From: Bacteroidota bacterium | GTDB taxonomy: Bacteria > Bacteroidota > Bacteroidia > 2-12-FULL-35-15 | Assembly: GCA_947469885.1 (NCBI GenBank) | Contig: CANIQT010000016.1 | Coordinates: 19,213-83,212 of the forward strand | Direction: 5' to 3' | DNA length: 64,000 bases | Shown: positions 2,578-37,348 of the stretch, piece after piece | Layout of the letters: every line of letters starts with the position of its first letter | Position numbering within the stretch: the stretch's first letter is position 1 | Program-made: the position numbers and the translations under genes | Notes under the pieces: generated by a model | Told to the model about the DNA's origin: nothing | Databases searched by the model: none | The model's input: only the letters and a program-made list of their open reading frames with translations

Positions 2578-2603
2578 AACATAATAACTTAAATACTGTA
2601 ATC

Positions 2604-16737: not shown

Positions 16738-16772
16738 AATTAGTCATTCGTCATTCGTCAATAGTCATTCGC
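16738..16772. repeat. Heptanucleotide tandem array (GTCATTC/GTCATTA family)
   Basis: Sequence is attagtcattcgtcattcgtcaatagtcattcgc. It overlaps the last codons of the GT4 gene and lies upstream of dapA. Confidence 0.7.
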
Positions 16773-18889: not shown

Positions 18890-18894
18890 AATTC

Positions 18895-20711: not shown

Positions 20712-21858
20712 CGCTTACTTCTTCTTTTAACACATTGAGAATTGTTTCATAACCACTACTGAAAACATCTTTCGTGAAATACTTTTGTGCTAAATTAAAA
20801 TTTTTCACCTTTTCAGAATACGGCAATTTAGTAAAATTATAATCACTGCTGAAATCGGAAATAATATGTCCACAATTATTCTGTTTTGTAAAACTACTGA
20901 AATCGCCAATGTTTTCAGAAATCAAAACACTTAATCCTGCATTAAGGTATTCAGCAAATTTGGTTGGAGACGCTACTTGATTGGTTATTGAATTCTCCCT
21001 TATCACTATTCCGTAATCAGCAGCAGAAAGGTAATCCCCTACTTCGTGCGCTTTTACCCATTTCTGAATAATACGTTCAGGAAACTGCTTGTATGTTTTT
21101 AAATGCTCCAATTTAGTATTAGCCAACAACATGAATTTTATTGTAGCATTCATTTGCATTTGCATAAAAATAAAATCATCCACAATTACCAATGATTGCC
21201 AGTCGGCCGAAGAGCCTGAATAAACAAAAACAATATCCTTGTCATCAAAACCCAATTCCTTTCGTATTTCAATTATAACTTCTTTTGATGGAAAAAAAAA
21301 TTCAACATCATTATTAAGTGTACATGGAATAACAACATGGGAATCCATTTTATAATCATATTCATTTCTCCAATACTCTACCAATTTTTCTGAAACAGCA
21401 ATTCTGCAGTCAGAATGATGAATGACATTATTTTCTAATTCAGCAATTTCATTTTTACCCTCAACAATTTTGCTTAGGTACTCATTATACTCCGCTTTGT
21501 AAGCACCCCTTCCGTCAAAAACTATTTTTTTCACACCCATCCTTTTTTTTAGATTCAAAGCAAGATTACCTGCAAAAACACCCCTGCACCAAATGCTTTG
21601 TTTACCAATAAAAAGAAATAACAACTTCAGAATTAATTTATTTTTTTTCCAGTTCTTTTGTTTTGGGAACATTGGAAGAACGATTGCACCAGAAAAATGT
21701 TGTTTAATACTTTTTTTATTGGCTGAAAAATTTCGAACCGAAATAAGTGCAACCAGTCGAATATCCGCATTGAATTTTCTATTTACAAAATTACACACAT
21801 CAGTAACCTGACTGAAATAAACACCCGTTGGCTGATCGTTATAGGTAAGGTAAATCAT
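20704..21858 (-). CDS. Putative GT-B-fold glycosyltransferase (family unclear)
   Basis: It has a Rossmann-like two-domain layout and the C-terminal PTKFAEYLNAGLSVLISENIG. It overlaps both neighbours. Confidence 0.4.
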   Translation of the reverse strand: MIYLTYNDQPTGVYFSQVTDVCNFVNRKFNADIRLVALISVRNFSANKKSIKQHFSGAIVLPMFPKQKNWKKNKLILKLLFLFIGKQSIWCRGVFAGNLALNLKKRMGVKKIVFDGRGAYKAEYNEYLSKIVEGKNEIAELENNVIHHSDCRIAVSEKLVEYWRNEYDYKMDSHVVIPCTLNNDVEFFFPSKEVIIEIRKELGFDDKDIVFVYSGSSADWQSLVIVDDFIFMQMQMNATIKFMLLANTKLEHLKTYKQFPERIIQKWVKAHEVGDYLSAADYGIVIRENSITNQVASPTKFAEYLNAGLSVLISENIGDFSSFTKQNNCGHIISDFSSDYNFTKLPYSEKVKNFNLAQKYFTKDVFSSGYETILNVLKEEVSDD

Positions 21859-22958
21859 TCAATCAGTAGTTGATTTAAGACACTTACTATCCGTTCCGTT
21901 GCTTTTCCATCCCATAGTTCAGGGACTGTTCCTTTTTTATAATTATCTGTTTCAATTAAGTTCATCTGAGTTTTAATTGAATCAATATCAAATGGAATCA
22001 ATGTGTTTGTACCTATAGAGCAGGTTACAGGTCGTTCCGTGTTTGGCCTCAATGTTAAACAAGGAACTCCAACAAATGTTGACTCTTCCTGTATTCCTCC
22101 ACTATCTGTTAAAATAAATTTGCTGTTACTAATCAGATTTTGAAACGCAAAATAATCAAGAGGTTCTGTGGAAACAATATTTTTAATGTTTTGAAAACGA
22201 TATAGCAATCCTTCTTTTTCAATATTCTTTAAGGTACGTGGATGAATAGGAAACACCACTTTATACAGTTTCGTTACTTCTTCAATCAACTCTATCAATT
22301 TCGTGAGTCCGACTACATTATCAACTGTTGCTGGGCGGTGCATGGTCATTAGCACATACTTTTTTGATTCAAGTTTCAACTTTTCTAATATAGTTGATGA
22401 TTGAATTTTTAAATCAAAACTAACTAGTGAGTCAATCATGGTATTCCCAACAAAAAAAAGTTTGTTTTTGGCAACACCCTCCTTCAGTAAGTTATTGATT
22501 CCACTTTGCTCTGTTACAAAATAATAATCCGTAATTGCATCAGTCACAATTCTGTTGTTTTCTTCGGGCATTGTTTTATCAAAACTCCTCAATCCGCTTT
22601 CTAGATGGGCTAATTTGATATTTAATTTATTTGCAACAAGTGCAGCAGCAAGAGTTGAATTAACATCACCTACTACAATCACTAAATCAGGCTGATAAGT
22701 AGTATTTAATAGCTCTTCGAGTTTCATCATAATGTAGGCCATCTGTGCTATGGCTGAATCAGGAGAAATATTTAGGAAAAAATCAGGGATAAGATTGAAT
22801 TGTTCGAAAAACACATCTGCCATCTTGGAATCATAGTGTTGCCCTGTATGCACAATTTTAACCTCTAAAGAAGAGAATTTTGCAACCTCCTTTTTAAATT
22901 GGGTAACCTTAATAAAATTAGGTCGTGTGCCAACAACAATTAGTATTTTCTTTTTCAT
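21855..22958 (-). CDS. wecB: UDP-N-acetylglucosamine 2-epimerase (non-hydrolysing)
   Basis: It has KILIVVGTRPNFIKV, HTGQHYD, GDVNSTLAAAL, HLESGLRSFD and DSGGIQEE. Confidence 0.9.
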   Translation of the reverse strand: MKKKILIVVGTRPNFIKVTQFKKEVAKFSSLEVKIVHTGQHYDSKMADVFFEQFNLIPDFFLNISPDSAIAQMAYIMMKLEELLNTTYQPDLVIVVGDVNSTLAAALVANKLNIKLAHLESGLRSFDKTMPEENNRIVTDAITDYYFVTEQSGINNLLKEGVAKNKLFFVGNTMIDSLVSFDLKIQSSTILEKLKLESKKYVLMTMHRPATVDNVVGLTKLIELIEEVTKLYKVVFPIHPRTLKNIEKEGLLYRFQNIKNIVSTEPLDYFAFQNLISNSKFILTDSGGIQEESTFVGVPCLTLRPNTERPVTCSIGTNTLIPFDIDSIKTQMNLIETDNYKKGTVPELWDGKATERIVSVLNQLLIE

Positions 22959-22964
22959 CCTTTC

Positions 22965-23873
22965 CTATCCAAGTATTTTTTGAATCACTTTAAAACCAAG
23001 TAATTTGTAAAAAAACAAATAAAATGCAGATGAGCTGGAAGATGAAACTGGCTCAAATTTATTTTTTACATACTTTATATATAATTCTATTCCCGCCTCT
23101 TTGTTTTCAGAGTATAAAATTCGAATACTATCAAAAACGTTTATTTTTAACACGTTTAGAAGATTGTTTGTTAACTGACCTGATGATTTCAAATACTCCC
23201 AAATATTAATTCTAAGTTCAATGTACCTGATAATATTATCTTTTACATTGGTTTTAGAAATTGAACTTAGAGTACGTTCCATTTTTATCGTGTTAAATTC
23301 TTCATCAAATAAAACAATACTATTCTGCTTTAATATTTTAAACATTAATATAGCCTCTTGACTACTCCTGACATTATCCCAACCACCTACATTTATCAAC
23401 ACACTTTTTTTCCATAAGTTGGAGCTTGTAAATCCTAAACGTCCTTTGATTAATCCTTCCCAGCTGTTTTTTATTTGAATAATATTTTCTGTTTTATTAT
23501 TTTCTGTTCTGCTGTAATTGCCAACAATTAAATCTGAATTAGTTTCAGAAATCAAATTCATTTGTGTTCTTAATTTTTCAGGGAGAAGAATATCATCTGC
23601 ATCCAAAAACTGAATCCACTCCCCTTTAGCAATTTTAAGTCCTGAATTTCTTGCTACAGATGCTCCATGTTGTGATTCAATAAGTACGATAACCTTATCA
23701 GGATATTTTTTTTTGTAATTATTCAAAACCAATAAGGTGTTATCGGAAGAATTATTTTCGATACAAATGATTTCTGTTTCCTTATAAGTTTGTTGAATAA
23801 CCGACTCGATACATTCACTAATAAATTTTTCTGCGTTGTGACAGGGTATAATAACAGAAATTAATGGTGACAT
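22965..23873 (-). CDS. GT2-family glycosyltransferase
   Basis: It has ISVIIPCHNAEKFISECIESVIQQTY and the DxD motif as FLDADD. Confidence 0.85.
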   Translation of the reverse strand: MSPLISVIIPCHNAEKFISECIESVIQQTYKETEIICIENNSSDNTLLVLNNYKKKYPDKVIVLIESQHGASVARNSGLKIAKGEWIQFLDADDILLPEKLRTQMNLISETNSDLIVGNYSRTENNKTENIIQIKNSWEGLIKGRLGFTSSNLWKKSVLINVGGWDNVRSSQEAILMFKILKQNSIVLFDEEFNTIKMERTLSSISKTNVKDNIIRYIELRINIWEYLKSSGQLTNNLLNVLKINVFDSIRILYSENKEAGIELYIKYVKNKFEPVSSSSSSAFYLFFYKLLGFKVIQKILG

Positions 23874-23895
23874 AGCTATAAAATTTCAAAAAAAT

Positions 23896-24957
23896 CTATT
23901 TGAATTTTTGTTTCCATTTCAAAATCCTTTTTTCGTAAAATTCGTACGAAAGAATAGCAACAACAAAAGTGAGGATGATGTTAAGCGGGAAAACAAAAAT
24001 CCATATTGATGGGTCCTCTTTGGGACTATTACCAATAAAAAATCCTTGCCAAATATATAATCCATAAGATATTTTTCCCACATAAGAAATAACTTTAGTA
24101 TCCAAAACTTTTACGAAACCACTCGATTGATTATGAAAAATCCATAGCAGTAATAATGAAGCCCCGATAGAATGAAAAATGCGAACAGAATCGAACAAGC
24201 CGTCAGGTATATAAAAGGGAACGAATAACACACCTAAACTAACTAATAACCAAACACCATTATTTTTAAATTGTTTTTTTACAACATCAATATTTGTATG
24301 ATTATACAATGCGATGATGGAACCAATTAAAATAGGAGTTATAGCAGGTATTATCCATCGGTCAACAAAAAATAAATTTTTCAGCTGACGTTCATGAATA
24401 TAAAGTTCAGGAAGAATTTGAAGTGCCGCAAAACTCACTATTATTACTACTACTACTAAAATGTAAATGCTAGATTTTTTCAAATAACTCAAAATGAAAG
24501 GCCATGTGAAATAAAATTGCTCTTCTACACCCAACGACCAAGTATGCGATAATTCAGCAGAAAACACACGGTTATCTTTAGGAATAAAATTATAGAGATA
24601 TGCCATAGAAACAAAAAGTCCCAAATAAGCCGGTTCAATTAAACCAAAAAACATAAAGATAGCAATACAAATATAGAATGGTATGATTGGCGGGAGCAGT
24701 CTTAAAAATCTCCTTATAAAAAATTTCTTGATATTTATTTTTCCTTTCTCGTTCTTTTCGTGCAACAATAATGAAGTAATTAAAAATCCGCTTATGGCAA
24801 AAAACATATTTACACCAGCCCCACCAGATATAAAATAAAATACATTCTGTCGCAAATAGGGAATATTGGGCAACAGGCTTGCCACTCCTAAATGCGAACA
24901 AAACACAAACATGATTGAAAAAAAACGTAACCCGTCAAAACCTTTTATTCTCTCCAT
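23896..24957 (-). CDS. Acyltransferase family 3
   Basis: It begins GFDGLRFFSIMFVFCSH and is polytopic. Confidence 0.8.
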   Translation of the reverse strand: MERIKGFDGLRFFSIMFVFCSHLGVASLLPNIPYLRQNVFYFISGGAGVNMFFAISGFLITSLLLHEKNEKGKINIKKFFIRRFLRLLPPIIPFYICIAIFMFFGLIEPAYLGLFVSMAYLYNFIPKDNRVFSAELSHTWSLGVEEQFYFTWPFILSYLKKSSIYILVVVVIIVSFAALQILPELYIHERQLKNLFFVDRWIIPAITPILIGSIIALYNHTNIDVVKKQFKNNGVWLLVSLGVLFVPFYIPDGLFDSVRIFHSIGASLLLLWIFHNQSSGFVKVLDTKVISYVGKISYGLYIWQGFFIGNSPKEDPSIWIFVFPLNIILTFVVAILSYEFYEKRILKWKQKFK

Positions 24958-25013
24958 TTTAGTACTCTTAACAGTAAATAGCTTTCATTTAAAATATCAA
25001 AATTCAATATTAC

Positions 25014-25982
25014 TTAATTATTATCATTAAAATTAATTTTTTCATCTTTCAAAATATTAAGCTTCTTAAAATCTTGCAATAATATTTTATTAAACAAATC
25101 CACACCAAACTGATTCAAGTGATGAGAATCGTAAAAATGCGTTTGAGAATTAAAATTACTATTAAATGAATAATCCAAATATTTTACATTATATTTATCG
25201 GATAAACCAATAAATACCTTTTTGAAAATATCGTGTTGCTCTTTCAGTTTTTCTTTCGGAAAAGGAGCAGTTACCATTACCACAGGAATTTTGTTATCCT
25301 TAAAATATTGTAATATTTTCTCGAGATAATTAATCTGCATTTCGCTCGGAAAACCTCTGCTTTCATATTCTTCAAAAGGAAGAGAATATTTTAGAGTATC
25401 TCTTTTTTCACTAAACCCATTGCCAACATAAAACGAATCGAGGTAAATTGGGGGAACAGATTTATTCACAAACCTCAGAGCAAGCATATTTATTATCTGT
25501 GGGTTTTGATATGATGAAGCCATTTCTATAGCAGCCTTATCGGATGAAAGATTTTGAATTAAATCTGATGCTGACTCGAAACCATTGAAAAGAAAGGAAC
25601 CATCGTACACATCCAAAATTACCAGTTTGCAATTTTGAGGAGTCACATAATTTTTTACAATAACATAAGAATTAAGCGGAGATTGTGCACTCGTGCCAAG
25701 GTTAAAAACATTTATTCCTTCTTTTTTAAAATTTCTAGGGTCGTAACCCCTATAAGCATGCGAAGAACCAATAATTATTATATCATATTTTTCACTTTTG
25801 TTAAATTGATTAAATTTCTGATAACTATTTCCACCTTTCAGCATATAAATATCAGATGTACGATATATCAAAGGTTTGCTTTTAAATTTTACTTTACAAA
25901 CAAACACCAATGAAGGAATATAAATGAGGGCAAACACCAAAAGAAAAACAAGTCCGGTTGATATTAATTTTTTGATTTCCAT
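25014..25982 (-). CDS. Putative extracytoplasmic partner of the MBOAT (DltD/AlgJ/AlgX-like)
   Basis: It has a single N-terminal TM anchor and IIIGSSHAYRGYD. Its stop abuts the start codon of the MBOAT gene (25982/25983). Confidence 0.4.
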   Translation of the reverse strand: MEIKKLISTGLVFLLVFALIYIPSLVFVCKVKFKSKPLIYRTSDIYMLKGGNSYQKFNQFNKSEKYDIIIIGSSHAYRGYDPRNFKKEGINVFNLGTSAQSPLNSYVIVKNYVTPQNCKLVILDVYDGSFLFNGFESASDLIQNLSSDKAAIEMASSYQNPQIINMLALRFVNKSVPPIYLDSFYVGNGFSEKRDTLKYSLPFEEYESRGFPSEMQINYLEKILQYFKDNKIPVVMVTAPFPKEKLKEQHDIFKKVFIGLSDKYNVKYLDYSFNSNFNSQTHFYDSHHLNQFGVDLFNKILLQDFKKLNILKDEKINFNDNN

Positions 25983-27440
25983 TTAAAACTGAAAGTAAAT
26001 AAAGTTAGTATCGGAGAATCGTCCAAAAATTAAAATAAATGCAAGAATACTCGCAAATAAAATCAGGTTAAGTGCTTTGCTCTTTATCACTCTTTGTTGC
26101 TTCTGCAATTTATCCATAAACGAATCGGCTGAAAGAAACAAGGCTAACAATCCAAACATCACAAATATACCCGTTATGTCGTTTATTCTGAACAAAGAAA
26201 TATTTTTTAAGTTAATGAAATCTTCCATTGTAAATATTTTTACAATAATGGAAAAAGCATCGTCCAGCGTTTGGGCCCTAAAAAATATCCATGCAAATGC
26301 AACGAGGTTAAACGTAATAAATGTTTGGGCAACTGATAAAGCAAATGATTTATAATTTCTTTCCTCTTCAATGTCGTACAAAACTCCACCAAAAAACCGT
26401 TTTAAGAAATTTTCGATGAGTAAATAAAATCCATGCAATGCACCCCAGATTATAAATGTCCAGTTGGCTCCATGCCAAAAACCGCTGACTAAAAACACCA
26501 CCATAGTATTGAAAAACAATCGCCCTCTCTCCACTTTTTTTCCACCTAATGGTATATAAACATAATCTCGGAACCAAGTGGAAAGCGACATGTGCCATCG
26601 TTGCCAAAATTCTCTTATTGATTTTGAAAAATAAGGGGTGCGAAAGTTTTCTCTCAAATTAATTCCAAGCACTTTTGCGGAGCCAATGGCAATATCGGAA
26701 TAACCAGAGAAATCGCAGTAAATCTGGATAGCAAAAAAGTAAGTATAAAGTAATAATGAAAAACCATCGTGGTTGTCAATATTTCCATACCCTTGTTTTA
26801 CCAATGCCGATAGTCTGTCGGCAATTACAATTTTTTTGAAAAATCCCCAGAGCATCTGCTTTAATCCTGCTACTATTCGTTCGTAATCTATATCGTAATG
26901 AAAATTGAACTGAGGCAATACATTTTGAGGACGCTCGATAGGGCCCGCTACCAATTGAGGAAAGAACATTACATAAAGTGCATACTTAACAAAATTCCGT
27001 TCAGCGGTTTGGTTTCCCCTATAAACTTCAATGGTATAACTCATTGCTTGAAATGTATGGAAAGACAAACCTATGGGGAGAATAATACCAAGATAAGGCA
27101 AAGAAGAATCGAACCCAAGAAAGGTAATTACTTCGTTAAAATTATCAATGAAAAAATTATAATATTTAAAAACTGCCAATACTCCAATATTGGCAATAAG
27201 GCTCATAATTAGGAATTGTTTTCTACGATTGCCTTCCGTTGCATTTTCAATTAATATTCCAGCAAAATAATCTATTACAATAGTACCACCTAAAATAAGA
27301 ATGTAATAAGGAATAAACGCCATGTAAAAATAACAACTGGCGGTTAACAGTATCAGCCAACGAAATCTATAAGGCGATAAAAAATAGATTAGGGTTACTA
27401 AAGGAAAAAAAACTAAAAAACTAAAAGAGTTAAATAACAT
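25983..27440 (-). CDS. MBOAT-family membrane O-acyltransferase (AlgI/DltB-like)
   Basis: It has the conserved FWQRWHMSLSTWFRDYVYIPLGG and FLVSGFWHGANW (catalytic His). Confidence 0.85.
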   Translation of the reverse strand: MLFNSFSFLVFFPLVTLIYFLSPYRFRWLILLTASCYFYMAFIPYYILILGGTIVIDYFAGILIENATEGNRRKQFLIMSLIANIGVLAVFKYYNFFIDNFNEVITFLGFDSSLPYLGIILPIGLSFHTFQAMSYTIEVYRGNQTAERNFVKYALYVMFFPQLVAGPIERPQNVLPQFNFHYDIDYERIVAGLKQMLWGFFKKIVIADRLSALVKQGYGNIDNHDGFSLLLYTYFFAIQIYCDFSGYSDIAIGSAKVLGINLRENFRTPYFSKSIREFWQRWHMSLSTWFRDYVYIPLGGKKVERGRLFFNTMVVFLVSGFWHGANWTFIIWGALHGFYLLIENFLKRFFGGVLYDIEEERNYKSFALSVAQTFITFNLVAFAWIFFRAQTLDDAFSIIVKIFTMEDFINLKNISLFRINDITGIFVMFGLLALFLSADSFMDKLQKQQRVIKSKALNLILFASILAFILIFGRFSDTNFIYFQF

Positions 27441-27448
27441 AGTTGGTT

Positions 27449-28666
27449 TTATATATTAATTAAGTCTTCATAAAATTTCGAATAAATATGCTCCGCTTCA
27501 AAATGACTTTGCCAGAAACTTCTTACTCCTTTTCTAAATTCACTTGTATTCTTATTACTCATCTTAAAATCTGAAATCAATTTTGCAGTTTTGGTTATGT
27601 CCACATTTTTATCTATCAAATAACCGGTTTGCTCATTTACTATTTCTGCCATACCACCTACATTGGTTGCTATTACAGGTATTCCAAAACTAATGGCTTC
27701 TTGAACAGAAACCGGTAAACTTTCAGTTTCGCTAGTAGTTATAAATAAATTCACTGAATGGTTTTTATAAAATTCAATCACTTCCTTATTGGGTATACGT
27801 CCTTTAAATACAAAAGTAATATTTGTTGGCAAAAGTAACGCCTTTTCTTTCATTTCCTCCATACTAATGCCATCACCAAAATGAATCCAGTTCAAATCAA
27901 AATTAATGTTCTTCAGCATTTCAATAATTAAATGAACCCTTTTAAGTGGAATTAAATTGGAGCACGAAACGATTGTAAATTTTCCGCTTTCATCAAAGGC
28001 ATTAAATCCACTATTACTAGTACCCCAATACTGAATTTTTATTTTTTCGGGGAAACAGTTTTTGCTTTTAATGTAATTCACCCCATCCATCGAATTGGGA
28101 TAAACTGCACTAGCGTTTTTATAAACGAAATACCTGAAAGGTAAAAAGCCACCCTTATGCCGCTCATCATATATATCAAACCCTGCGCAACGGAAAACGA
28201 AATTATTAATCACCTTTTTACGTTTTAATATTGCCAAAGCCAACGCCCAATCATTCATCCAATACGAATAATAAATAACTTCATCAGGACTATGTTTAAT
28301 TGATTGCTTGATTTTTTCAGAATCATAAATTCCTCTTATCAAAATAGAATTGAATTGACGGATATTTTTAAGAAAATAAAACGGACGAGGAACACGCACA
28401 AATTCAGATAGTAATACAGAGCAAATAAAAAAAAAGTGGGATAAGTATATTTTTCTTGGAATCAAATCATTCCTTTCGTTTATTGCCTCTTGAACAATGC
28501 AATTAGCAGGAATAGTTCTTTTTTCTTCCCCTTTGTTAGCGTGTGGAAAAATAAAAATGGAATTAAATTTTTGTACCAGAACTGGAATTTCATTTTCAAG
28601 AAAACTCTCCGCCCTGCCATACGGATACGCTGCGGTAAATAAATAAACTACCTGCTTCATAAACAC
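27449..28666 (-). CDS. GT4-family glycosyltransferase
   Basis: It has ETESLPVSVQEAISFGIPVIATNVGGMAEIV. Its start is flush with the stop of the fibre gene, sharing 1 nt. Confidence 0.75.
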   Translation of the reverse strand: MFMKQVVYLFTAAYPYGRAESFLENEIPVLVQKFNSIFIFPHANKGEEKRTIPANCIVQEAINERNDLIPRKIYLSHFFFICSVLLSEFVRVPRPFYFLKNIRQFNSILIRGIYDSEKIKQSIKHSPDEVIYYSYWMNDWALALAILKRKKVINNFVFRCAGFDIYDERHKGGFLPFRYFVYKNASAVYPNSMDGVNYIKSKNCFPEKIKIQYWGTSNSGFNAFDESGKFTIVSCSNLIPLKRVHLIIEMLKNINFDLNWIHFGDGISMEEMKEKALLLPTNITFVFKGRIPNKEVIEFYKNHSVNLFITTSETESLPVSVQEAISFGIPVIATNVGGMAEIVNEQTGYLIDKNVDITKTAKLISDFKMSNKNTSEFRKGVRSFWQSHFEAEHIYSKFYEDLINI

Positions 28667-30699
28667 TACTTCTTAACTGCCACTATTTCTTGTTCTTGCG
28701 GAGTGTTTGTTTTTGAAGTGGTGGTTACATCCAATTTTCTTTCAATGTTAATAATTCTTTTTTCCAGTTGCTTTTTTTGAATTGATAATTCTTCTACCTG
28801 TTTTTTTAATTTTTCAATTTCATTTGTTTTGTCGCTCAGTTCTTTTGTTTTTTGTGCCAATGCCTGAATAGCCAATAAACTGATACCATCAACATCAATA
28901 GTAGTAATAGTAGTATCACTTTCTCCCATTTTAAATGCAGCATATAAATCCTGAGCCATCGGACCGATGTGTCTTATTTTAGCAGCTTGCGATTTGTAAT
29001 TCCATGAGGTTATTTCAATGTTAGAAAGTTTAGCCAACACTTCATCTTTGTCTTCTTTCAAAAAGTTTTCTTTTTTATTTCTATCTGATGTTCCTGACCA
29101 AGCTCCTCCTCCTGGAGGCAACCATTCAGAAGCCAGAGTACTCATTGCTGCACTTGAGTAAAATCTTGTACCACCAGAAGCTCTAACCATAAATTGGTTG
29201 TCTGCTGTTGCTCTTGTAGGGGTATTTGTAGAATCAGAATAAACAAAACAGCCTGTATGAAAGTTGGAGGTTGCTTTGTATCCCATTACAACAGAATAGG
29301 CATATGCTGTATCGTAAGTTCCAAAGGCAAATCCATATTTTCCATAAGTGGTGCTATGATAACCTAAACAAACAGAACCTGTATCTAATGCATTGGCACC
29401 TCTTCCCATTGCAATAGAGTATGGACCGAAAGCATGCGCCACACTTCCTAATGCAACAGCGCTTATACCAGATGCCCAACTTTGAAATCCTCCTGCAAAA
29501 GAATACAAGCCGCTTGCGGTACTTTCCTGACCAAGGCTGGTGGAATAATTTCCTGAAGCCACTGTATTATAATTGGCAGCAAATGAATAATGCCCAACCC
29601 TTGTAGAGTCCCATTGATTTACCAATCCGGTACCTCCTATTCCTCCTGCTCTGAACGCAGCCTTTTTAGGAAACCAAACCATACGTACTCCTGCACCTGC
29701 CGGAGGATTAGCACCAACACCAAAATTACCTTCTGCCAATACTCCATCATTACCAACAATGTGCAAAGATGCTAATGGAGTAGTTGTGCCTATACCTGTT
29801 CTTCCGCCTGCCGTTATTCTCATCCGCTCCGCATTATTTGTTTTTATTACAAAGTCTGCATTGTCGGTTGTACCAATAAAATTAGTAGTTGCATTGGTTC
29901 CTGAATTTCCGGTCAAATTCCAACCGGCAACCGAACTACCACAATTTAAAGCATAAACAGCGGTATCGCAGTAATTGGAATTCTGTGAATTGATAGAAGT
30001 AAGCGAACTATCAGAAAATGCTGATGAATCGGAGTAGTACGAAAAATAAACGGTATCTACTGTTGACAATACATTGGTGGCATACGTAGCAGAATCGGAA
30101 GTGATGGAATGATTGGAACTATATGCAAACAAAGCGGTATCCGAATTATTATCTGGTGCAGGAACCCATAACGAGCCATTCCATTTTAATAAATATCCTG
30201 AGGTAGCTCCAACTGTATCCACATCAATCAAATCATTTAAACGCATAGATTGATTTACTGAATTAGCCGTTTGCGCATTGAGCGCGTAAGGCACCGACCA
30301 AAACTGCATGGTATCAATATCCACATAATTACTGCCTCCGGTAGAATCCATTGCTATTTTTATAATATGAGGGGCTGCCCCCCAGTTGATATTTGAGAAA
30401 GAAGGTTGTGTGCCTCCTCCTGTAGTGGTGCCTTGTCCGATAATAAAATAAAATAATCCCAAAGGGTTGGTAGTAATGTTATGTGTTTCTTCCCACTGCA
30501 AAACACCGTTTGCAGAGTTAGCGTATATCCCCAATTTTACACTTATCGGTAAATTTGAAATAACTGCACCTGACGAATAACGGGCTAATCCCTGGTAGGT
30601 AATGCCCTGTGGTACAGACTGAGCTGTGCTTATTACACTTCCCGCTATAAGCAACAGAAAGAGTAAAAAGTGTTTTGTAATTGTTTTTTTCATTTTCAA
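28666..30699 (-). CDS. Secreted fibre protein with YadA/Hep_Hag-like repeats and C-terminal tail-spike-type intramolecular chaperone (peptidase S74-like) domain plus coiled coil
   Basis: It has a signal peptide (..VISTAQS) and an N-module PQGITYQG...VPYAL. A G/S/A/T-rich repeat follows (GNYSTSLGQESTASGLYSFAGG...). The C-terminus reads GTSDRNKKENF..ITSWNYK..RHIGPMAQD..IDVDGISLLAIQAL, then LKKQVEELSIQKKQLEKRI. Confidence 0.7.
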   Translation of the reverse strand: MKMKKTITKHFLLFLLLIAGSVISTAQSVPQGITYQGLARYSSGAVISNLPISVKLGIYANSANGVLQWEETHNITTNPLGLFYFIIGQGTTTGGGTQPSFSNINWGAAPHIIKIAMDSTGGSNYVDIDTMQFWSVPYALNAQTANSVNQSMRLNDLIDVDTVGATSGYLLKWNGSLWVPAPDNNSDTALFAYSSNHSITSDSATYATNVLSTVDTVYFSYYSDSSAFSDSSLTSINSQNSNYCDTAVYALNCGSSVAGWNLTGNSGTNATTNFIGTTDNADFVIKTNNAERMRITAGGRTGIGTTTPLASLHIVGNDGVLAEGNFGVGANPPAGAGVRMVWFPKKAAFRAGGIGGTGLVNQWDSTRVGHYSFAANYNTVASGNYSTSLGQESTASGLYSFAGGFQSWASGISAVALGSVAHAFGPYSIAMGRGANALDTGSVCLGYHSTTYGKYGFAFGTYDTAYAYSVVMGYKATSNFHTGCFVYSDSTNTPTRATADNQFMVRASGGTRFYSSAAMSTLASEWLPPGGGAWSGTSDRNKKENFLKEDKDEVLAKLSNIEITSWNYKSQAAKIRHIGPMAQDLYAAFKMGESDTTITTIDVDGISLLAIQALAQKTKELSDKTNEIEKLKKQVEELSIQKKQLEKRIINIERKLDVTTTSKTNTPQEQEIVAVKK

Positions 30700-30722
30700 T
30701 TATTATTAAAATATTTTTATCA

Positions 30723-32696
30723 TTATTTTTTGAGCATTGAATTTTCAATGATATCAAGTCGCTTGTTCAAATCATCAAAGTTGTTTATTTCGTCCACTTT
30801 GTTTTTTATTTCATCTAACTCATTAATTGTTTTCAGGTTATTCAATCTTGTGTTTACTCCTTTTATTCCCGCAATGATAATTCCATCTATATCAGTAGTA
30901 GAAATAAACAGTTTGTTTTCGCCCATTCTAAAAGCAGAGTAAAAATCCTGAGCCATCGGACCTATATGGCGAATGCTTCTGTCCTGCGATTTATAATTCC
31001 AACTTGTGATATTTAATTTTGCAATTTTCTTTAAAATTTTCTCACAATCAATTGCTTCAAAATTTTCTTTTTTATTTCTGTCGGATGTTCCTGCCCAAGC
31101 ACCACCACCTGGCGGAAGCCATACCATAGGTCCTGCACCCATTAATGCACTGGAATAAAAAATCACTCCTCCATCTGCTCTAACCTGAAATGATTTTGCA
31201 AGGATATTCGTTAAGGGTAGAGTGGTTGAATTATCAGCAAACGTAAACGAACCATACGCATTGGAAGCTGACACAGCACGGTTACCCATTGCAGTAGAAT
31301 AATGAGCATTAGTTGTACAATTGTTTCCAATACATAATGATACCACACCAACACATTTATTGTTGGTACCCAATGCCACATCTGTGGAAGCATTGGTAAC
31401 ATTGCCTCTGCCAATACTCACCGAGCGAACAGCGGCAGCTACACAACTATCGCCCAAGGCAACACCAGTTACCGCACTGCCCAACACCCCAATGCCACCA
31501 GTAGCAGTTGCCATTGATTTGCGCCCAATGGCAATGGTCCAGTCGCCAGTTACACATTCTCTGCCAGATGAAAAGGAATATCGTCCAGCCTTGTTGTTAT
31601 ATCCCGTGGCAAACGAATAATAACCAATATTTGCAGTATCCCATTGGTTGCCACTTACGCCACCTGCCCTGAAAGCAGCTTTTGCAGGATACCACAACAT
31701 TCGTGTTCCTGCACCCGAAACAGTTGGTACAGGTGATATTAATGTTCCTGTAGCAAGTATTCCATCATTGCCTGCTAGAGCAAGCTCCGCAATGTTTGCA
31801 GAATTGCCCACTGTTACATCTCCGTTGTTTTTTATTTTCCACCGTTCGGTGTTATTTGTTTTCATTATCAAATCAGGTGCATCGTTTGTTCCCAAATATT
31901 TTAATTGTGTGCCAATGCTATTGCCTGTGAGTGTCCATCCCGAAGGAGGAACATTGAAGGCATATAAAGCTATGTTCGCATTATTAGAATGATTTGTATT
32001 ATTTGAAAAACCAGAGTTGTTTGAAAATAACGAACTATCGGTAAAATAAGTAAACAACACGGTGTCGGGGGCGGTGGTGGTAAACACATTATAAGCAGTG
32101 TCGGTTAAGTGAGAGTAGGACGAATTGTAAGCAAAACTAACCGTGTCGTGATGATTGTCGATGCCCGGCACCCAATACGTTCCGTTGTATTTCAATACTT
32201 TGTTTATTGCTATTCCGGTAATATCAACATCGTGCATTTGCCACAAATACATACTGTCAACCGAATTGGTAGTGTTCGCAAAAAAAGCGTAAGGAACAGA
32301 AAACAATTGACTGTTGCCCATGTCCGTAAAGTTAGTGCCCCCTGTTGCATCCAATGATACTTTTAAATAATACATTCCGCCCGACCAGTTTATTTGCGCA
32401 AACGAAGCTGCTGCTCCTGCCCCGGTAGTGCTGCCTGTGCCGATAACAATTTTTATTTTTCCATATCCATCTGTAATAAGTTGATGGTCTTCCTGCCATT
32501 GAAGTATGCCATTAGCAGAGCCTGAATAAAATGAAAAACGAAGTTGAACGGATTGATTGGGAAGTAATACTCCCGCAGCATTTCGTATGATGGTTTGATA
32601 ATTGAAACCCTGCGGTGCGCTCTGTGAATAGGTTTTAAAGGAAATAAAAAAAAGTAAACAAACCGAAACAAAAAAATATTTAAAACTTAATTTCAT
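30723..32696 (-). CDS. Paralogous secreted fibre protein with S74-like C-terminal chaperone domain
   Basis: It has the same architecture as 28666-30699. Motifs are PQGFNYQT...VPYAF, GTSDRNKKENF..ITSWNYK..RHIGPMAQD..TDIDGIIIAGIKG, then a coiled coil. Confidence 0.7.
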   Translation of the reverse strand: MKLSFKYFFVSVCLLFFISFKTYSQSAPQGFNYQTIIRNAAGVLLPNQSVQLRFSFYSGSANGILQWQEDHQLITDGYGKIKIVIGTGSTTGAGAAASFAQINWSGGMYYLKVSLDATGGTNFTDMGNSQLFSVPYAFFANTTNSVDSMYLWQMHDVDITGIAINKVLKYNGTYWVPGIDNHHDTVSFAYNSSYSHLTDTAYNVFTTTAPDTVLFTYFTDSSLFSNNSGFSNNTNHSNNANIALYAFNVPPSGWTLTGNSIGTQLKYLGTNDAPDLIMKTNNTERWKIKNNGDVTVGNSANIAELALAGNDGILATGTLISPVPTVSGAGTRMLWYPAKAAFRAGGVSGNQWDTANIGYYSFATGYNNKAGRYSFSSGRECVTGDWTIAIGRKSMATATGGIGVLGSAVTGVALGDSCVAAAVRSVSIGRGNVTNASTDVALGTNNKCVGVVSLCIGNNCTTNAHYSTAMGNRAVSASNAYGSFTFADNSTTLPLTNILAKSFQVRADGGVIFYSSALMGAGPMVWLPPGGGAWAGTSDRNKKENFEAIDCEKILKKIAKLNITSWNYKSQDRSIRHIGPMAQDFYSAFRMGENKLFISTTDIDGIIIAGIKGVNTRLNNLKTINELDEIKNKVDEINNFDDLNKRLDIIENSMLKK

Positions 32697-32703
32697 TTTC
32701 GGG

Positions 32704-33210
32704 TTACGATTTACTTACTTTAAAGGTTCGGTTGAATTGATTTTTTGCAGAAATAATTCTCACAAAATAAATTCCTGAACTTAGTTTTTCGAAGTTCAGT
32801 TCTCCTGTATATTTCCCCTTATTATTATTTGAAATCATTTCAGTTAATTGTTTTTTGCCTAATACATCAAACACTTCACTGGTTACATCTGAATAATCTT
32901 GCAATTCGAGCAGTACAAACAAATTGCCAGAAACAGGATTGGGATACAAAACACAATTGCCCGAATTTATAACAGTGCCTACAGAAACTGAAAGCGATGG
33001 TTCAGGCTGTACAAATCCGTTGGTCATCATGTTTTGCGCGCCTGTGTAGCTATCACTCATTAGCTCACCAATATTGTATTGAAGCTGCAATGTTCCTGAG
33101 TTTTTATAATTGCCTGTTGAACTAAAATAAGAACTTCGCTCTATGTTTTGTGAAAAAACAAAGACTGAAACATGAAGTAAAACGATAGTGATTATGCTTT
33201 TAAAAGCCAT
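32704..33210 (-). CDS. Small secreted protein with T9SS type-A C-terminal sorting domain
   Basis: It has a signal peptide and a CTD pattern (LYPNPVSGNLFV...DVLGKKQ...LSSGIYFVRI....TFKVSK). Confidence 0.7.
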   Translation of the reverse strand: MAFKSIITIVLLHVSVFVFSQNIERSSYFSSTGNYKNSGTLQLQYNIGELMSDSYTGAQNMMTNGFVQPEPSLSVSVGTVINSGNCVLYPNPVSGNLFVLLELQDYSDVTSEVFDVLGKKQLTEMISNNNKGKYTGELNFEKLSSGIYFVRIISAKNQFNRTFKVSKS

Positions 33211-33258
33211 TATTGGTGTTTATTTATCAGCACAAAAATAAGAAAAGAAATCTAATAT

Positions 33259-33300
33259 TGTTAGTTGTCGGTTGTTAGTTATTAGCTATTAGTTATTAGG
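33259..33300. repeat. Heptanucleotide tandem array (GTTAGTT/ATTAGCT family)
   Basis: Sequence is tgttagttgtcggttgttagttattagctattagttattagg. Confidence 0.7.
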
Positions 33301-33308
33301 ATAGAAAT

Positions 33309-33433
33309 AATTGCCACGACCTTTAGGTCGTGGTTGAATATATTACTTTACTGGCTTTAGCCACAACAAACCTATTTGGCTAAAGCCCAATTTTATAGTT
33401 TTATTTATCCACGACCTAAAGGTCGTGGCAATT
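33309..33433. repeat. REPIN-like inverted doublet of REP units
   Basis: aattgCCACGACCtttaGGTCGTGG ..ggctttagcc.. is followed by its inverted copy ..ggctaaagcc.. CCACGACCtaaaGGTCGTGGcaatt. The units are the same as those flanking rayT at 51265-51823. Confidence 0.8.
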
Positions 33434-33443
33434 AATAGACTTT

Positions 33444-35774: not shown

Positions 35775-35820
35775 GATTTTGATTGTTAATGGTTAATTTA
35801 TTAATAGTTAATATTCAATT

Positions 35821-36072
35821 TTTGTATTTATCCTACCGGAAATTTTTCCGATAGGTGTTGTACATGTATTTACCCTACCGGATATTTTTGCGATAGGTGT
35901 TGTACTTTTATTTGCCTTATCGGAAATTTTTGCGATAGGTGTTGTACGTGTATTTGCTTTACCGGAAACTTTTCCGATAGGAGTTGTACATCTATTTACC
36001 CTACCGGAAATTTTTCCGATAGGAGTTGTACGAGTATTTGCTTTACCGGAAACTTTTCTGATAGTTGCCATA
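35821..36072. repeat. Tandem array, 6 x 42 bp
   Basis: Each unit resembles catgtatttaccctaccggaaatttttccgataggtgttgta and contains a small palindrome (cggaaa..tttccg). The array starts 47 nt upstream of the 34809-35774 start codon. An 87-aa minus ORF with a 14-aa period (TTPIGKISGRVN..) can be read through it. Confidence 0.85.
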
Positions 36073-37339: not shown

Positions 37340-37348
37340 ATTTCTTTT

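What the first reader, a model, noticed from the sequence alone, without database searches (positions are those of the whole stretch)
28666..33210. Cell-encoded pair of self-chaperoned (S74-type) trimeric fibre proteins fused onto the glycan operon
Two adjacent paralogues (677 and 657 aa) each carry a signal peptide and a shared N-terminal module (PQG(I/F)(T/N)YQ ... VPYA). Each also has a G/S/A/T-rich block resembling YadA/Hep_Hag head repeats.

The C-terminus reads GTSDRNKKENF ... ITSWNYK ... RHIGPMAQD ... ID(V/I)DGI (nt 29065-29088 and 31062-31085 encode SDRNKKEN). This matches the intramolecular chaperone/auto-cleavage domain of phage tail spikes and endosialidases, and a coiled coil follows it.

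No capsid, terminase, integrase or baseplate gene occurs anywhere in the window. The genes are instead co-directional with the glycosyltransferase/acyltransferase cluster and share a nucleotide with its first gene (28666). A mini T9SS-CTD protein precedes them.

This looks like a host-domesticated fibre or adhesin module whose assembly, glycosylation or anchoring is coupled to the neighbouring glycan genes. To my knowledge the function of such fibres in Bacteroidota is unassigned.
Basis: partly seen in the sequence, partly recalled or inferred. Interest (0 to 1): 0.75.

Follow-up and report, generated by a model that had tools for sequence, protein, structure and literature searches.

The report
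Self-cleaving surface fibres with T9SS partner
Two neighbouring chromosomal genes of an uncultured Bacteroidota bacterium encode phage-tail-fibre-like, probably self-trimerising and self-cleaving fibres related to the adhesive fibres of the predator Bdellovibrio, and in every related genome examined they come with one small secretion-tagged partner gene inside a surface-sugar gene cluster, which suggests how such fibres may reach the cell surface.

Summary
FibA (28666..30699) and FibB (30723..32696) are 42% identical paralogues. Each has a signal peptide, a shared N-terminal domain, a Gly/Ser/Ala-rich head, a Peptidase_S74 chaperone domain with an invariant Ser538/Lys543 pair, and a terminal coiled coil. 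A 168-aa T9SS-CTD protein gene precedes them. The window is chromosomal (it contains dnaA) and has no phage structural genes.

This kind of protein is already known. The N-domain, the β-helix capping region and the S74 domain match the Bdellovibrio MAT (mosaic adhesive trimer) fibres. The N-domain superfamily has about 26,700 clusters with varied C-terminal parts.

Two things appear new.
- The mini-CTD, FibB and FibA triad is conserved in all 15 other related genomes examined, down to about 39% identity. It always lies inside a surface-polysaccharide locus, but no particular enzyme gene is always next to it.
- In T9SS-bearing phyla, S74 fibre genes of several architectures sit beside CTD-protein genes (28 of 34 loci, against 0 of 42 loci elsewhere). 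Rare proteins fuse S74 and a CTD.

My best reading is that these are native surface fibres whose display depends on T9SS through the partner protein. That step is inferred, not shown. I rate it a new variant of a known kind, interest about 0.55.

The parts
32704..33210 (-). Mini T9SS-CTD protein (168 aa). It has a signal peptide, a conserved N-part of about 60 aa (Q21..R..FS..G...NIGELM...TNGFVQPE) that is predicted disordered on its own, and a type-A C-terminal sorting domain (aa 88-160).
   Evidence: Pfam Por_Secre_tail E = 6.5e-13 and TIGR04183. An orthologue ends within about 10 nt of the FibB start in 14 loci and precedes the pair in the DNA-less P0086 locus. In the AF2 model aa 22-82 have pLDDT below 50 and the CTD is a confident beta-sandwich.
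30723..32696 (-). FibB (657 aa), a MAT-like S74 fibre paralogue. It has a signal peptide ending ..YS|Q25, an N-domain at about aa 25-139, a shaft, a Gly-rich head, S74 from S538 (31085..31083) and a coiled coil.
   Evidence: Pfam Peptidase_S74 E = 4.1e-13 at aa 538-589. NF053851 Bdello_MAT_N E = 2e-8. 42% identical to FibA. A FibB-type orthologue is present in every triad.
28666..30699 (-). FibA (677 aa from TTG; more likely 675 aa from the ATG at 30693), a MAT-like S74 fibre with a YadA-like head.
   Evidence: Pfam Peptidase_S74 E = 8.3e-11 and YadA_head E = 8.5e-12. NF053851 E = 4e-11. More than 1,145 full-length homologues. AF2 model and Foldseek matches.
30280..30621 (-). FibA N-terminal beta-sandwich 'base' domain (aa 27-140), related to the Bdellovibrio MAT N-domain.
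   Evidence: All 25 family members tested hit NF053851. Confident beta-rich fold at aa 31-132. A profile of this domain finds 26,684 representative clusters, nearly always directly after a signal peptide.
29926..30153 (-). FibA shaft (aa 183-258) made of repeats of about 14 residues that each start with D-T/S-A/V. It carries conserved D-[ST]-[AILMTV] sites at 187, 202, 215 and 245; a further conserved site at 161 lies just N-terminal of this segment.
   Evidence: Family mean 7.3 sites against 2.4 expected. Position 187 is conserved in 96 of 96 members. Low model confidence as a monomer.
29155..29925 (-). FibA beta-helix/capping-loop segment (aa 259-345, ..GIGTTTPLASLH..) and YadA-like left-handed beta-roll head (aa 346-515).
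   Evidence: The family profile hits Bdellovibrio MAT structures 8ojn/8onb/8onc (3.7e-9) and 8ond (5e-8) at profile positions 274-374, and TAA heads 7o23 (4e-30) and 1p9h at positions 350-480. Foldseek matches 7o23, 9gh5 and 3s6l.
28720..29088 (-). FibA intramolecular chaperone / self-cleavage domain. The predicted cut is before S538 (codon 29088..29086), K543 is the predicted general base, and a long C-terminal helix spans aa 600-660.
   Evidence: S538 and K543 are invariant in 96 sequences. The Pfam match starts at model position 1 at S538. Foldseek matches the MyRF ICA domain 7dc3 with probability 1.0 and TM 0.53-0.56.
33211..33443 (-). Upstream intergenic region: a REP-like hairpin doublet (33308-33434), then an AT-rich stretch with a TAnnTTTG-like -7 box about 25 nt before the mini-CTD start. 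This is the probable start of the transcription unit.
   Evidence: Sequence read; repeats. The promoter assignment is inferred from the known Bacteroidota -7 consensus and was not tested.
16758..28666 (-). Co-directional polysaccharide genes following FibA with gaps of 56 nt or less: GT4, MBOAT (DltB-like) with a 322-aa partner, Acyl_transf_3, GT2, WecB epimerase, a GT-like 384-aa gene, a hexapeptide acetyltransferase, a WecE-type aminotransferase, Acyl_transf_3 and GT4.
   Evidence: Pfam and NCBIfam. Gene spacing.

Best explanation
The region is a native three-gene cassette of environmental Bacteroidota. It encodes two paralogous MAT-like trimeric surface fibres and a small dedicated T9SS-CTD partner, and it sits inside a surface-polysaccharide locus.

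The proposed sequence of events for each fibre is as follows.
1. The fibre is exported by Sec.
2. It folds in the periplasm into a trimer. This is nucleated by its C-terminal S74 chaperone domain.
3. The chaperone cuts itself off before Ser538, using a Ser538/Lys543 dyad.
4. This leaves a chain of about 510 residues. Its N-terminal beta-sandwich 'base' domain sits near the cell, and its YadA-like head forms the distal, ligand-binding tip.
5. The fibres carry no sorting domain of their own. I infer that the co-translated mini-CTD protein binds them through its disordered N-part. It would then either escort them through the T9SS or, once it is attached to LPS by the T9SS sortase, dock them on the surface.

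The polysaccharide locus probably supplies the glycan environment in which the fibres are displayed: an anchor, a coat or a modification.

What is shown by sequence or model: the domain identities, the conserved dyad, the conserved gene triad, and the gene-neighbourhood statistics. What is inferred: trimerisation, cleavage, surface location, the role of the mini-CTD and the role of the glycan.
For: **Identity of the fibres**
- S74 and YadA_head pass Pfam's cut-offs.
- S538 and K543 are invariant in 96 homologues.
- The model matches the MyRF ICA fold and TAA heads.
- The MAT N-domain model hits 25 of 25 members.
- The family profile hits the Bd3182 and Bd2133 structures.
- Bd3182 shows the experimentally proven SDxxxK self-cleavage (PMC10769870).

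**Native, not phage**
- dnaA is in the window.
- GC3 equals that of the neighbouring genes.
- One trivial hit in the phage collection.
- No phage genes around 15 orthologous loci.

**The triad**
- The order mini-CTD, FibB, FibA, with gaps of about 10 nt or less or overlaps, holds in the window plus 15 genomes down to about 39% identity.

**Link to T9SS**
- In FCB-group loci, 29 of 71 genes flanking S74 genes encode CTD proteins, against 6 of 392 non-flanking genes (p = 7e-21).
- At locus level this is 28 of 34 loci, against 0 of 42 loci in other phyla.
- The partners were confirmed by Pfam.
- Single proteins that fuse S74 and a CTD exist.
- The Gammaproteobacteria relative has no mini-CTD.
- The mini-CTD N-part is conserved but predicted disordered on its own.

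**Link to glycan loci**
- Every triad lies among GT, acyltransferase, Wzm/Wzt or Wzz genes, in at least six different arrangements.
Against: - There is no experimental or structural evidence that the mini-CTD touches the fibres. Adjacency statistics are inflated by shared ancestry.
- N-domain proteins with other tips (the collagen type, P0136/L092) have no mini-CTD neighbour. A five-gene N-domain array (L026) has none either. So the N-domain does not generally need such a partner.
- The cis fusions place the CTD behind the chaperone domain. S74 fibres are therefore not barred from carrying their own CTD. In those proteins the CTD would stay with the released chaperone unless export comes before separation.
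- Bdellovibrio displays MAT fibres without any T9SS.
- No particular glycan gene co-occurs with the triad. The glycan link could simply reflect clustering of surface-structure genes.
- The tip is not hypervariable, which is unlike typical receptor-binding fibres.
Confidence: 0.55

Rival explanations
1. The fibres are glycoproteins. They are the protein substrate of the surrounding glycosyl- and acyl-transferases, or of the general Bacteroidota O-glycosylation system, and together with the glycan they form a glycosylated fibrillar coat. This is compatible with the main explanation but puts the emphasis on modification and not on T9SS.
For: - FibA has 11 D-[ST]-[AILMTV] sites against 2.5 expected.
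- The family mean is 7.3 against 2.4, with sites at 161, 187 (96 of 96 members), 202, 215 and 245 conserved.
- The Gammaproteobacteria relative lacks this shaft.
- The fibre genes probably share an operon with GT, MBOAT and acyltransferase genes.
- The motif is the known Bacteroidota O-glycosylation sequon (my own knowledge: Fletcher 2009, Coyne 2013).
Against: - The D-T/S-A triplets start each repeat of about 14 residues and each predicted short helix. They may be structural helix caps.
- FibB's enrichment is weak (5 against 2.3, p = 0.07).
- The flanking enzymes differ between genomes, and the loci look like O-antigen or EPS loci with Wzm/Wzt and Wzz, not protein-glycosylation loci.
Confidence: 0.3
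2. The fibres bind or process the cell's own polysaccharide, as phage tailspikes do. For example they could organise, cross-link, trim or release the O-antigen or EPS made by the locus. On this view the glycan, not another cell or surface, is the ligand of the head.
For: - Phage S74 proteins are typically polysaccharide-binding or polysaccharide-degrading.
- The Bd3182 cleft is proposed to bind O-antigen (PMC10769870).
- The triad always lies in polysaccharide loci, often next to Wzz or Wzt.
Against: - The head is a YadA-like beta-roll, a fold known from adhesins and not from depolymerases. No enzyme family was hit.
- The head is evenly conserved while the glycan gene content varies. That is hard to reconcile with specific recognition of a variable glycan.
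Confidence: 0.12
3. The pair is a domesticated prophage or tailocin remnant. The tail-fibre genes would be left over from an integrated phage and carry no cellular function.
For: - PHROG tail-fibre families are hit weakly (E = 4e-9).
- Viral S74/YadA-head proteins are the best BFVD structural matches.
- A REP-like element lies just upstream.
Against: - No phage structural, lysis or integration genes occur in 64 kb or around 15 orthologous loci.
- The three-gene order is conserved down to about 39% identity, with intact ORFs and an invariant catalytic dyad.
- Codon composition is native.
- FibA has only a 40-residue match in the phage collection.
- The fibres have Sec signal peptides, which phage fibres do not have (my own knowledge).
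Confidence: 0.02
4. The two fibres are classical trimeric autotransporter adhesins (type Vc secretion).
For: YadA_head repeats are present, with weak NCBIfam hits to YadA, Ata and BimA. Some sources name homologues 'trimeric autotransporter adhesin'.
Against: No YadA-type membrane anchor was hit in either protein. The C-terminus is instead an S74 chaperone domain followed by a soluble coiled coil.
Confidence: 0.01

Closest known systems
Bdellovibrio bacteriovorus MAT (mosaic adhesive trimer) fibres, S74 subgroup, e.g. Bd3182 (Caulton et al. 2024, PMC10769870)
   Same: - Both are chromosomally encoded.
- Both have a Sec signal peptide followed directly by a conserved beta-rich N-domain. NF053851 hits 25 of 25 family members.
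- Both have a trimeric beta-helix with G-x-G-x-x-x-P-x-x-x-L capping loops. The family profile hits 8ojn/8onb and 8ond.
- Both end in an S74 domain with an SDxxxK motif.
- Both belong to an N-domain superfamily with mosaic C-termini: S74, collagen, C1q and Fib_succ_major.
   Different: - The N-domain match is below NCBIfam's family cut-off (42.9 and 34.2 bits against 60).
- The proteins are about 650 aa, not about 1,000 aa.
- The tip is a YadA-like beta-roll.
- They occur as a fixed, vertically conserved pair with an evenly conserved tip, not as a diversified repertoire of 21 genes.
- They are always accompanied by a mini T9SS-CTD gene and embedded in polysaccharide loci. The MAT paper mentions neither secretion nor glycosylation, and Bdellovibrio has no T9SS (my own knowledge).
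- The hosts are not known predators.
Phage tailspike / tail-fibre intramolecular chaperone domains (Peptidase_S74: endosialidase K1F, T5 pb1) and eukaryotic MyRF ICA domain
   Same: Pfam PF13884 is matched above its cut-off, the Ser-x4-Lys dyad is conserved, and a helical C-terminal part follows. The model matches the MyRF ICA structure 7dc3. Viral S74/YadA-head proteins are the best viral structural matches.
   Different: The proteins have a signal peptide and lie in a cellular, non-phage context. No solved S74 chain is reached by sequence search, and FibA has almost no sequence relative in GenBank phages.
Trimeric autotransporter adhesin heads (YadA, BpaC, BoaA, CbpF)
   Same: The head is a left-handed beta-roll of SxAxG-type repeats. 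The family profile hits 7o23 at E = 4e-30 and 1p9h at E = 5e-13, with supporting Foldseek matches.
   Different: There is no C-terminal beta-barrel anchor. Trimerisation is presumably driven by the S74 chaperone, and the head lies at the C-terminal, not the N-terminal, end of the mature chain.
T9SS type-A cargo and small CTD proteins such as P. gingivalis PorA
   Same: The mini protein is little more than a signal peptide, a short N-part and a Por_Secre_tail CTD. T9SS cargo are known to be exported folded and to become amide-linked to an LPS sugar (PMC7468200, PMC9251779).
   Different: The mini protein's N-part has no known family, and it is genetically tied to S74 fibres. Export or anchoring of a CTD-less partner by a CTD protein has not been described in the literature I could search.

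Membership tests
Peptidase_S74 / C-terminal intramolecular chaperone domain | Profile match to PF13884 above the curated cut-off | tested here: met
   FibA 42.5 bits and FibB 49.9 bits against a cut-off of 22, at aa 538-589.
Peptidase_S74 / C-terminal intramolecular chaperone domain | Catalytic Ser-Lys dyad in an S-D-x-x-x-K motif at the start of the domain | tested here: met
   SDRNKK in both proteins. S538 and K543 are invariant in 25 and in 96 homologues.
Peptidase_S74 / C-terminal intramolecular chaperone domain | Chaperone fold with a C-terminal helical bundle | tested here: met
   The AF2 model is confident over aa 540-660. Foldseek matches the MyRF ICA domain 7dc3 with probability 1.0 and TM 0.53-0.56. 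This was a monomer model only.
Peptidase_S74 / C-terminal intramolecular chaperone domain | Trimerisation-dependent autoproteolytic release of the domain | not testable with these tools
   This needs expression of the wild type against S538A, as was done for Bd3182 (PMC10769870).
MAT (mosaic adhesive trimer) fibres | Signal peptide followed at once by the conserved beta-rich N-domain of about 130 aa | tested here: inconclusive
   NF053851 matches at E = 4e-11 and 2e-8, and 25 of 25 family members match at E <= 1e-3. FibA and FibB score 42.9 and 34.2 bits, below the 60-bit cut-off of this Bdellovibrio-specific model. The result indicates homology at superfamily level.
MAT (mosaic adhesive trimer) fibres | Trimeric beta-helix shaft with capping-loop motif V-G-G/N-pi-x-x-P-x-x-x-L | tested here: met
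   FibA has G-I-G-T-T-T-P-L-A-S-L. The family profile hits Bd3182 (8ojn, 3.7e-9) and Bd2133 (8ond, 5e-8) across this region. The trimeric state was not modelled.
MAT (mosaic adhesive trimer) fibres | Interchangeable ('mosaic') C-terminal tips on a constant N-domain | tested here: met
   This holds for the superfamily: among 67 long N-domain proteins the tips include S74 (10), collagen (8), Fib_succ_major (8) and C1q (3). It does not hold for this pair, whose tip is evenly conserved.
MAT (mosaic adhesive trimer) fibres | Cell-surface location and a role in contacting other cells | not testable with these tools
   No expression or localisation data are available.
Trimeric autotransporter adhesin (type Vc) | C-terminal YadA-type beta-barrel membrane anchor | tested here: not met
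   No anchor family was hit in either protein at E <= 0.1. The C-terminus is S74 plus a coiled coil.
Trimeric autotransporter adhesin (type Vc) | YadA-like head repeats | tested here: met
   FibA matches PF05658 at E = 8.5e-12 and the family profile hits TAA heads. FibB does not reach the threshold on its own.
Prophage / tailocin tail-fibre module | Adjacent phage structural, assembly or integration genes | tested here: not met
   None in the 64-kb window or in the flanks (6-10 kb on each side) of 15 orthologous loci.
T9SS type-A cargo | C-terminal Por_Secre_tail sorting domain | tested here: met
   Met for the mini protein (E = 6.5e-13). Not met for FibA or FibB, which have no CTD hit. Rare relatives carry it in cis.

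The most novel reading that the evidence does not exclude
S74 fibres shed their own C-terminus, which is where a T9SS sorting domain must sit. In T9SS-bearing bacteria they may therefore be exported 'in trans'. Under this reading, a dedicated small CTD protein grips the folded trimer with its disordered N-part. It carries the trimer through the T9SS translocon. The T9SS sortase then joins the CTD protein to an LPS glycan, and this tethers the fibre to the cell surface. That would be the first adaptor-mediated (piggyback) T9SS export route. It would also identify the kind of surface element that the MAT N-domain binds.
Probability: 0.22. Interest if true: 0.8.

Novelty: new variant of a known kind. 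Interest (0 to 1): 0.55.

Why it matters
Cell-encoded, phage-like self-chaperoned fibres have so far been characterised only in the predator Bdellovibrio. In that work the cell-surface element that holds the fibres was left unidentified, and no export route is discussed.

This locus shows that a related fibre family is widespread in environmental Bacteroidota: more than 1,100 protein clusters for this pair's family and about 26,700 for the N-domain. It also provides two concrete leads that genetics can test. One is an obligate small T9SS-tagged partner gene. The other is a fixed residence in surface-polysaccharide loci.

If the partner proves to be an export adaptor or an anchor, that would extend the rules for T9SS substrates beyond 'the cargo carries its own CTD'. 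It would also give annotators a reason to stop calling these genes phage tail fibres.

If not, the result is still useful. It assigns a large 'tail fiber domain-containing protein' family to the MAT-like surface fibres and shows that its members are not prophage debris.

Tried and rejected
1. **Recent horizontal acquisition.** The fibre genes have higher G+C (0.39-0.40 against about 0.32). This comes from codon position 2, and their GC3 is like the neighbours'. Rejected.
2. **Close phage relatives.** A tblastn search of 50,697 phage records gave one 40-residue hit.
3. **Sequence search of the S74 region against the PDB.** It reached no S74 chain. The dyad assignment therefore rests on Pfam, invariance and the Foldseek match.
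4. **Hypervariable tip.** This is expected for receptor-binding fibres. Per-domain identities are even across 14 orthologue sets. Rejected.
5. **GT4 as a dedicated fibre glycosyltransferase.** The orthologue is near the triad in only 8 of 14 loci and is rarely adjacent. Not supported.
6. **The mini-CTD as a general partner of the MAT-like N-domain.** A collagen-type N-domain protein is a solo gene among housekeeping genes, another lacks it, and a five-gene N-domain array lacks it. Rejected in that general form.
7. **The flanking glycan as the Wbp/Vim-type sugar that links T9SS cargo to LPS.** The window's aminotransferase is WecE-type (496 bits) and its epimerase is WecB. Not supported.
8. **'S74 fibres cannot carry a CTD in cis'.** Contradicted by L047 and by P0280, P0284 and P0285. 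The argument was softened accordingly.
9. **Sigma-70 promoter and terminator scans.** They were no better than shuffled sequence and were not used.
10. **Literature searches for Bacteroidota S74 fibres or T9SS piggyback export.** They found nothing relevant. The searchable library is incomplete, so this is weak evidence of novelty.

Full report
**1. What is there**

On the minus strand lie three tightly spaced ORFs:
- a 168-aa protein at 32704..33210;
- FibB at 30723..32696 (657 aa);
- FibA at 28666..30699, which is 677 aa from a TTG start. The ATG two codons later gives 675 aa, the length held in the protein database (P0001).

The gaps between them are 7 nt and about 23-29 nt. FibA and FibB are 42% identical over their whole length, E = 1e-155. 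The SDRNKKEN coordinates (29065-29088 and 31062-31085) are exact.

Pfam gives the following:
- Peptidase_S74 at aa 538-589 in both proteins (E = 8e-11 and 4e-13, above the cut-off);
- YadA_head in FibA only (E = 8.5e-12);
- Por_Secre_tail in the small protein (E = 6.5e-13).

The rest of the window is ordinary chromosome. It includes dnaA, ETF, thymidylate synthase/DHFR, an alpha-2-macroglobulin, a TonB receptor behind a cobalamin riboswitch, and GH92. It has no phage structural, lysis or integration genes, and the unknown ORFs near the fibres have no meaningful PHROG hits. The only mobile-element gene is an IS200-type transposase at 51.3 kb.

**2. Anatomy of the fibres**

An alignment of 96 full-length homologues and an AlphaFold2 monomer model divide FibA into these parts:
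- A signal peptide. A Gln that is at least 90% conserved follows the predicted cleavage site. This fits the Bacteroidota 'Q-rule' for signal peptidase I substrates (my own knowledge).
- A confidently modelled beta-sandwich N-domain (aa 27-140).
- A poorly modelled shaft of repeats of about 14 residues, each beginning D-T/S-A/V (aa 183-258).
- A beta-helix segment with a GIGTTTPLASLH capping-loop motif (aa 259-345).
- A left-handed beta-roll head (aa 346-515).
- The S74 domain, starting at an invariant Ser538 with an invariant Lys543 five residues later, and ending in a 60-residue helix.

Foldseek matches the model to trimeric-autotransporter heads (7o23, 3s6l, CbpF) and to the MyRF intramolecular-chaperone domain (7dc3, probability 1.0). 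Among viral models it matches S74/YadA-head fibres of phages and giant viruses. Plain sequence search does not reach any solved S74 chain. The dyad assignment therefore rests on three things: the Pfam alignment, which starts at model position 1 on Ser538; the invariance of the two residues; and the fold match.

**3. The closest known relatives are Bdellovibrio MAT fibres**

NCBIfam's Bdello_MAT_N model hits the N-domain of both proteins (E = 4e-11 and 2e-8). It also hits all 25 family members tested. FibA and FibB score 42.9 and 34.2 bits, below the model's 60-bit cut-off.

The family profile hits the solved MAT structures of Bd3182 and Bd2133 in the capping-loop and beta-helix region.

The MAT paper (PMC10769870) describes this architecture:
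- a signal peptide;
- a conserved beta-rich N-domain of about 130 aa;
- a trimeric fibre with capping loops;
- in 13 of 21 members, an S74 domain with an SDxxxK motif. Bd3182 cleaves itself at S782, and the S782A mutant does not.

The paper states that the N-domain presumably binds an unidentified surface element.

A profile of the window family's N-domain finds 26,684 representative clusters among 1.84 billion proteins. The domain almost always lies directly behind a signal peptide. Among 67 long members the C-terminal parts include S74, collagen, Fib_succ_major, YadA_head and C1q. The superfamily is therefore mosaic in the MAT sense. Cell-encoded S74 fibres are thus a known kind, and FibA and FibB are distant, shorter members of it.

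**4. They are native genes, not phage debris**

- GC3 of the fibre genes (0.28 and 0.33) equals that of their neighbours. The higher overall G+C is a codon-position-2 effect of their Gly/Ala/Ser/Thr-rich composition.
- FibA has more than 1,145 full-length homologues of about 600-680 aa, many on contigs of up to 4 Mb. Where they have a name it is 'tail fiber domain-containing protein' or 'hypothetical'.
- A translated search of 50,697 GenBank phage records gave a single 40-residue hit.

**5. The conserved unit is a triad inside polysaccharide loci**

In the closest genome (74% identity) the order mini-CTD, FibB, FibA, GT4, MBOAT, 322-aa gene is kept. The upstream genes there are different and are not phage genes.

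The same three genes, in the same order and nearly abutting, recur in all 15 other genomes examined, down to about 39% identity. These comprise several unnamed Bacteroidota MAGs and Crocinitomix/Crocinitomicaceae.

Each time the triad lies in a surface-polysaccharide locus, but the locus differs. The arrangements seen are:
- Wzm/Wzt(Wzt_C) upstream and GT4 downstream;
- Wzz/BY-kinase directly upstream, with a convergent sugar-modification and ABC-transporter block downstream;
- acyltransferase upstream, with GT2 and an asparagine-synthase-like gene downstream;
- further variants.

The GT4 that follows FibA in the window has an orthologue within 10 kb in only 8 of 14 loci. So the link is to the type of locus, not to one enzyme.

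Conservation along the fibres is even. There is no hypervariable tip.

A Gammaproteobacteria relative with the same N-domain and S74 is a solo gene. It has a different shaft, no mini-CTD and no glycan neighbours.

**6. A wider link between S74 fibres and T9SS**

I built HMMs from the mini-CTD tails, the S74 domains and the N-domains, and scanned all fetched loci. In Bacteroidota, Ignavibacteria/Melioribacter and Rhodothermales loci, S74 genes of several architectures sit directly beside a CTD-protein gene:
- the triad;
- a mini-CTD with a single fibre of about 1,000 aa carrying the N-domain and S74;
- the Dyadobacter arrangement S74(391 aa), CTD(478 aa), S74(395 aa);
- a CTD protein of 324-343 aa followed by a short S74 protein;
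- other arrangements.

Pfam confirmed Por_Secre_tail in 9 of 9 partners tested.

The counts are as follows:

| Loci | Flanking genes encoding a CTD protein | Non-flanking genes encoding a CTD protein | Loci with at least one flanking CTD gene |
|---|---|---|---|
| FCB group | 29 of 71 | 6 of 392 | 28 of 34 |
| Longimicrobium, Acidobacteriota, Proteobacteria and other phyla | 0 of 62 | 0 of 232 | 0 of 42 |

For the FCB group, Fisher's p = 7e-21. These loci share ancestry, so the p-value overstates independence. Even so, the association recurs across at least six architectures.

One Parafilimonas protein (L047) combines a signal peptide, a head, S74, a coiled coil and a classical CTD in a single chain. 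At least three database relatives carry PF13884 and PF18962 together. This is gene-fusion evidence for a functional link.

The mini protein's N-part of about 60 residues is conserved but is modelled as disordered on its own. That would fit a segment that folds on a partner, although the alignment behind the model was shallow.

**7. Most likely mechanism**

Shown by sequence or model: the domain identities, the conserved dyad, the triad and the neighbourhood statistics.

Inferred by analogy with Bd3182 and phage S74 proteins: the fibres trimerise in the periplasm on their C-terminal chaperone domain. The chaperone then cleaves before Ser538. This leaves a chain of about 510 residues with the N-domain at the base and the YadA-like head at the tip.

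Inferred from gene context: the fibres have no CTD, yet they are always encoded with a CTD protein in T9SS-bearing lineages. The mini-CTD therefore probably mediates their display. It could do this in either of two ways:
- by escorting the folded trimer through the T9SS, which exports folded proteins (PMC9251779);
- by serving as a surface dock after its C-terminus is linked to LPS, as happens for T9SS cargo (PMC7468200).

The polysaccharide locus would provide the glycan to which this is tied, or which coats or modifies the fibres.

**8. Points against the mechanism and the rivals**

Points against the T9SS-partner model:
- Other N-domain proteins have no such partner.
- Cis fusions show that a CTD can sit behind the chaperone domain.
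- Bdellovibrio displays MAT fibres without T9SS.
- Nothing shows physical contact between the mini protein and the fibres.

The rivals:
- *Glycoprotein reading.* It is supported by an excess of D-[ST]-[AILMTV] sites (family mean 7.3 against 2.4 expected; five conserved positions, one of them in 96 of 96 members). However, these triplets also begin each shaft repeat and each predicted short helix, so they may be structural.
- *Tailspike-like role on the cell's own glycan.* This is possible but sits poorly with an adhesin-type head and a conserved tip facing variable glycan genes.
- *Prophage remnant and trimeric autotransporter.* Both readings are refuted. There are no phage neighbours, and there is no membrane anchor domain.
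- *Wbp/Vim idea.* My idea that the flanking genes make the Wbp/Vim linking sugar failed. The aminotransferase is WecE-type and the epimerase is WecB.

**9. Verdict**

It needs two corrections. The class is already known from Bdellovibrio MAT proteins. The specific coupling to the first glycosyltransferase is incidental.

Two things appear new:
- the fixed mini-CTD, FibB, FibA cassette resident in polysaccharide loci;
- the broader pairing of S74 fibres with T9SS-tagged partners.

I found no description of either in the searchable literature, which is incomplete. I rate it a new variant of a known kind, of moderate to good interest. It offers a testable hypothesis about how these fibres are exported and anchored.

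Noticed in passing
window 33308-33434 and 51270-51820: The 20-nt palindrome CCACGACCTWWAGGTCGTGG occurs four times where none is expected. One inverted doublet lies just upstream of the fibre triad. The other pair flanks the IS200-type Y1 transposase ORF 51336..51764. This looks like a REP-associated tyrosine transposase (RAYT) with a REPIN-like derivative.
   Followed up: partly
window 35823-36064: A 42-nt tandem repeat of 5.8 copies (85% matches). Each unit has an internal CGGAAAnTTTTCCG palindrome. It overlaps an 87-aa repeat ORF (35808..36071, minus strand). I have no explanation for it.
   Followed up: no
window 34809-35774 (-): A 321-aa ORF with no significant Pfam, NCBIfam or PHROG hit (best PHROG E = 0.003) and higher G+C (0.42) than its neighbours. 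It lies between the upstream acyltransferase gene and the tandem repeat.
   Followed up: no
window 1450-5344 (+): A run of an HlyD-like protein, a 477-aa protein with a TackOD1 ('Thaumarchaeal output domain 1') domain plus zinc ribbon, and a chitin-synthase-like GT2. This may be a synthase-type exopolysaccharide system with an unusual regulatory domain.
   Followed up: no
L013 7271-8446 (Dyadobacter fermentans) and equivalents in L014, L021, L029, L050: A short S74 protein (391 aa: head, S74 and coiled coil) ends in a hydrophobic transmembrane-like segment after the chaperone domain. The chaperone part may therefore stay membrane-tethered while the fibre is released, reminiscent of MyRF.
   Followed up: no
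L026 3010-16140 (Bacteroidota single-cell genome AM-311-A02): Five large genes in tandem all begin with the MAT-like N-domain. Two of them have S74 and three do not. No CTD gene is nearby. This resembles a Bdellovibrio-style diversified fibre repertoire.
   Followed up: no
L085, L086, L088 (Crocinitomicaceae), 0.1-5 kb: Upstream of the polysaccharide genes and the triad there is a conserved set: an Exosortase_EpsH gene, a small PID_CTERM protein gene (L086 and L088) and a DUF8202 protein gene of about 1,030 aa. This is a second protein-sorting system next to the fibre locus.
   Followed up: no
P0131 (916 aa): The top hit of the N-domain profile contains six tandem copies of the N-domain in one protein, with a FlgD_ig-like C-terminus. 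The 'base' domain can therefore also be used as a repeat.
   Followed up: no
window 36854-37837 (-): Two adjacent paralogous small secreted proteins (161 and 162 aa) with no family assignment, followed by a 291-aa putative lipoprotein.
   Followed up: no
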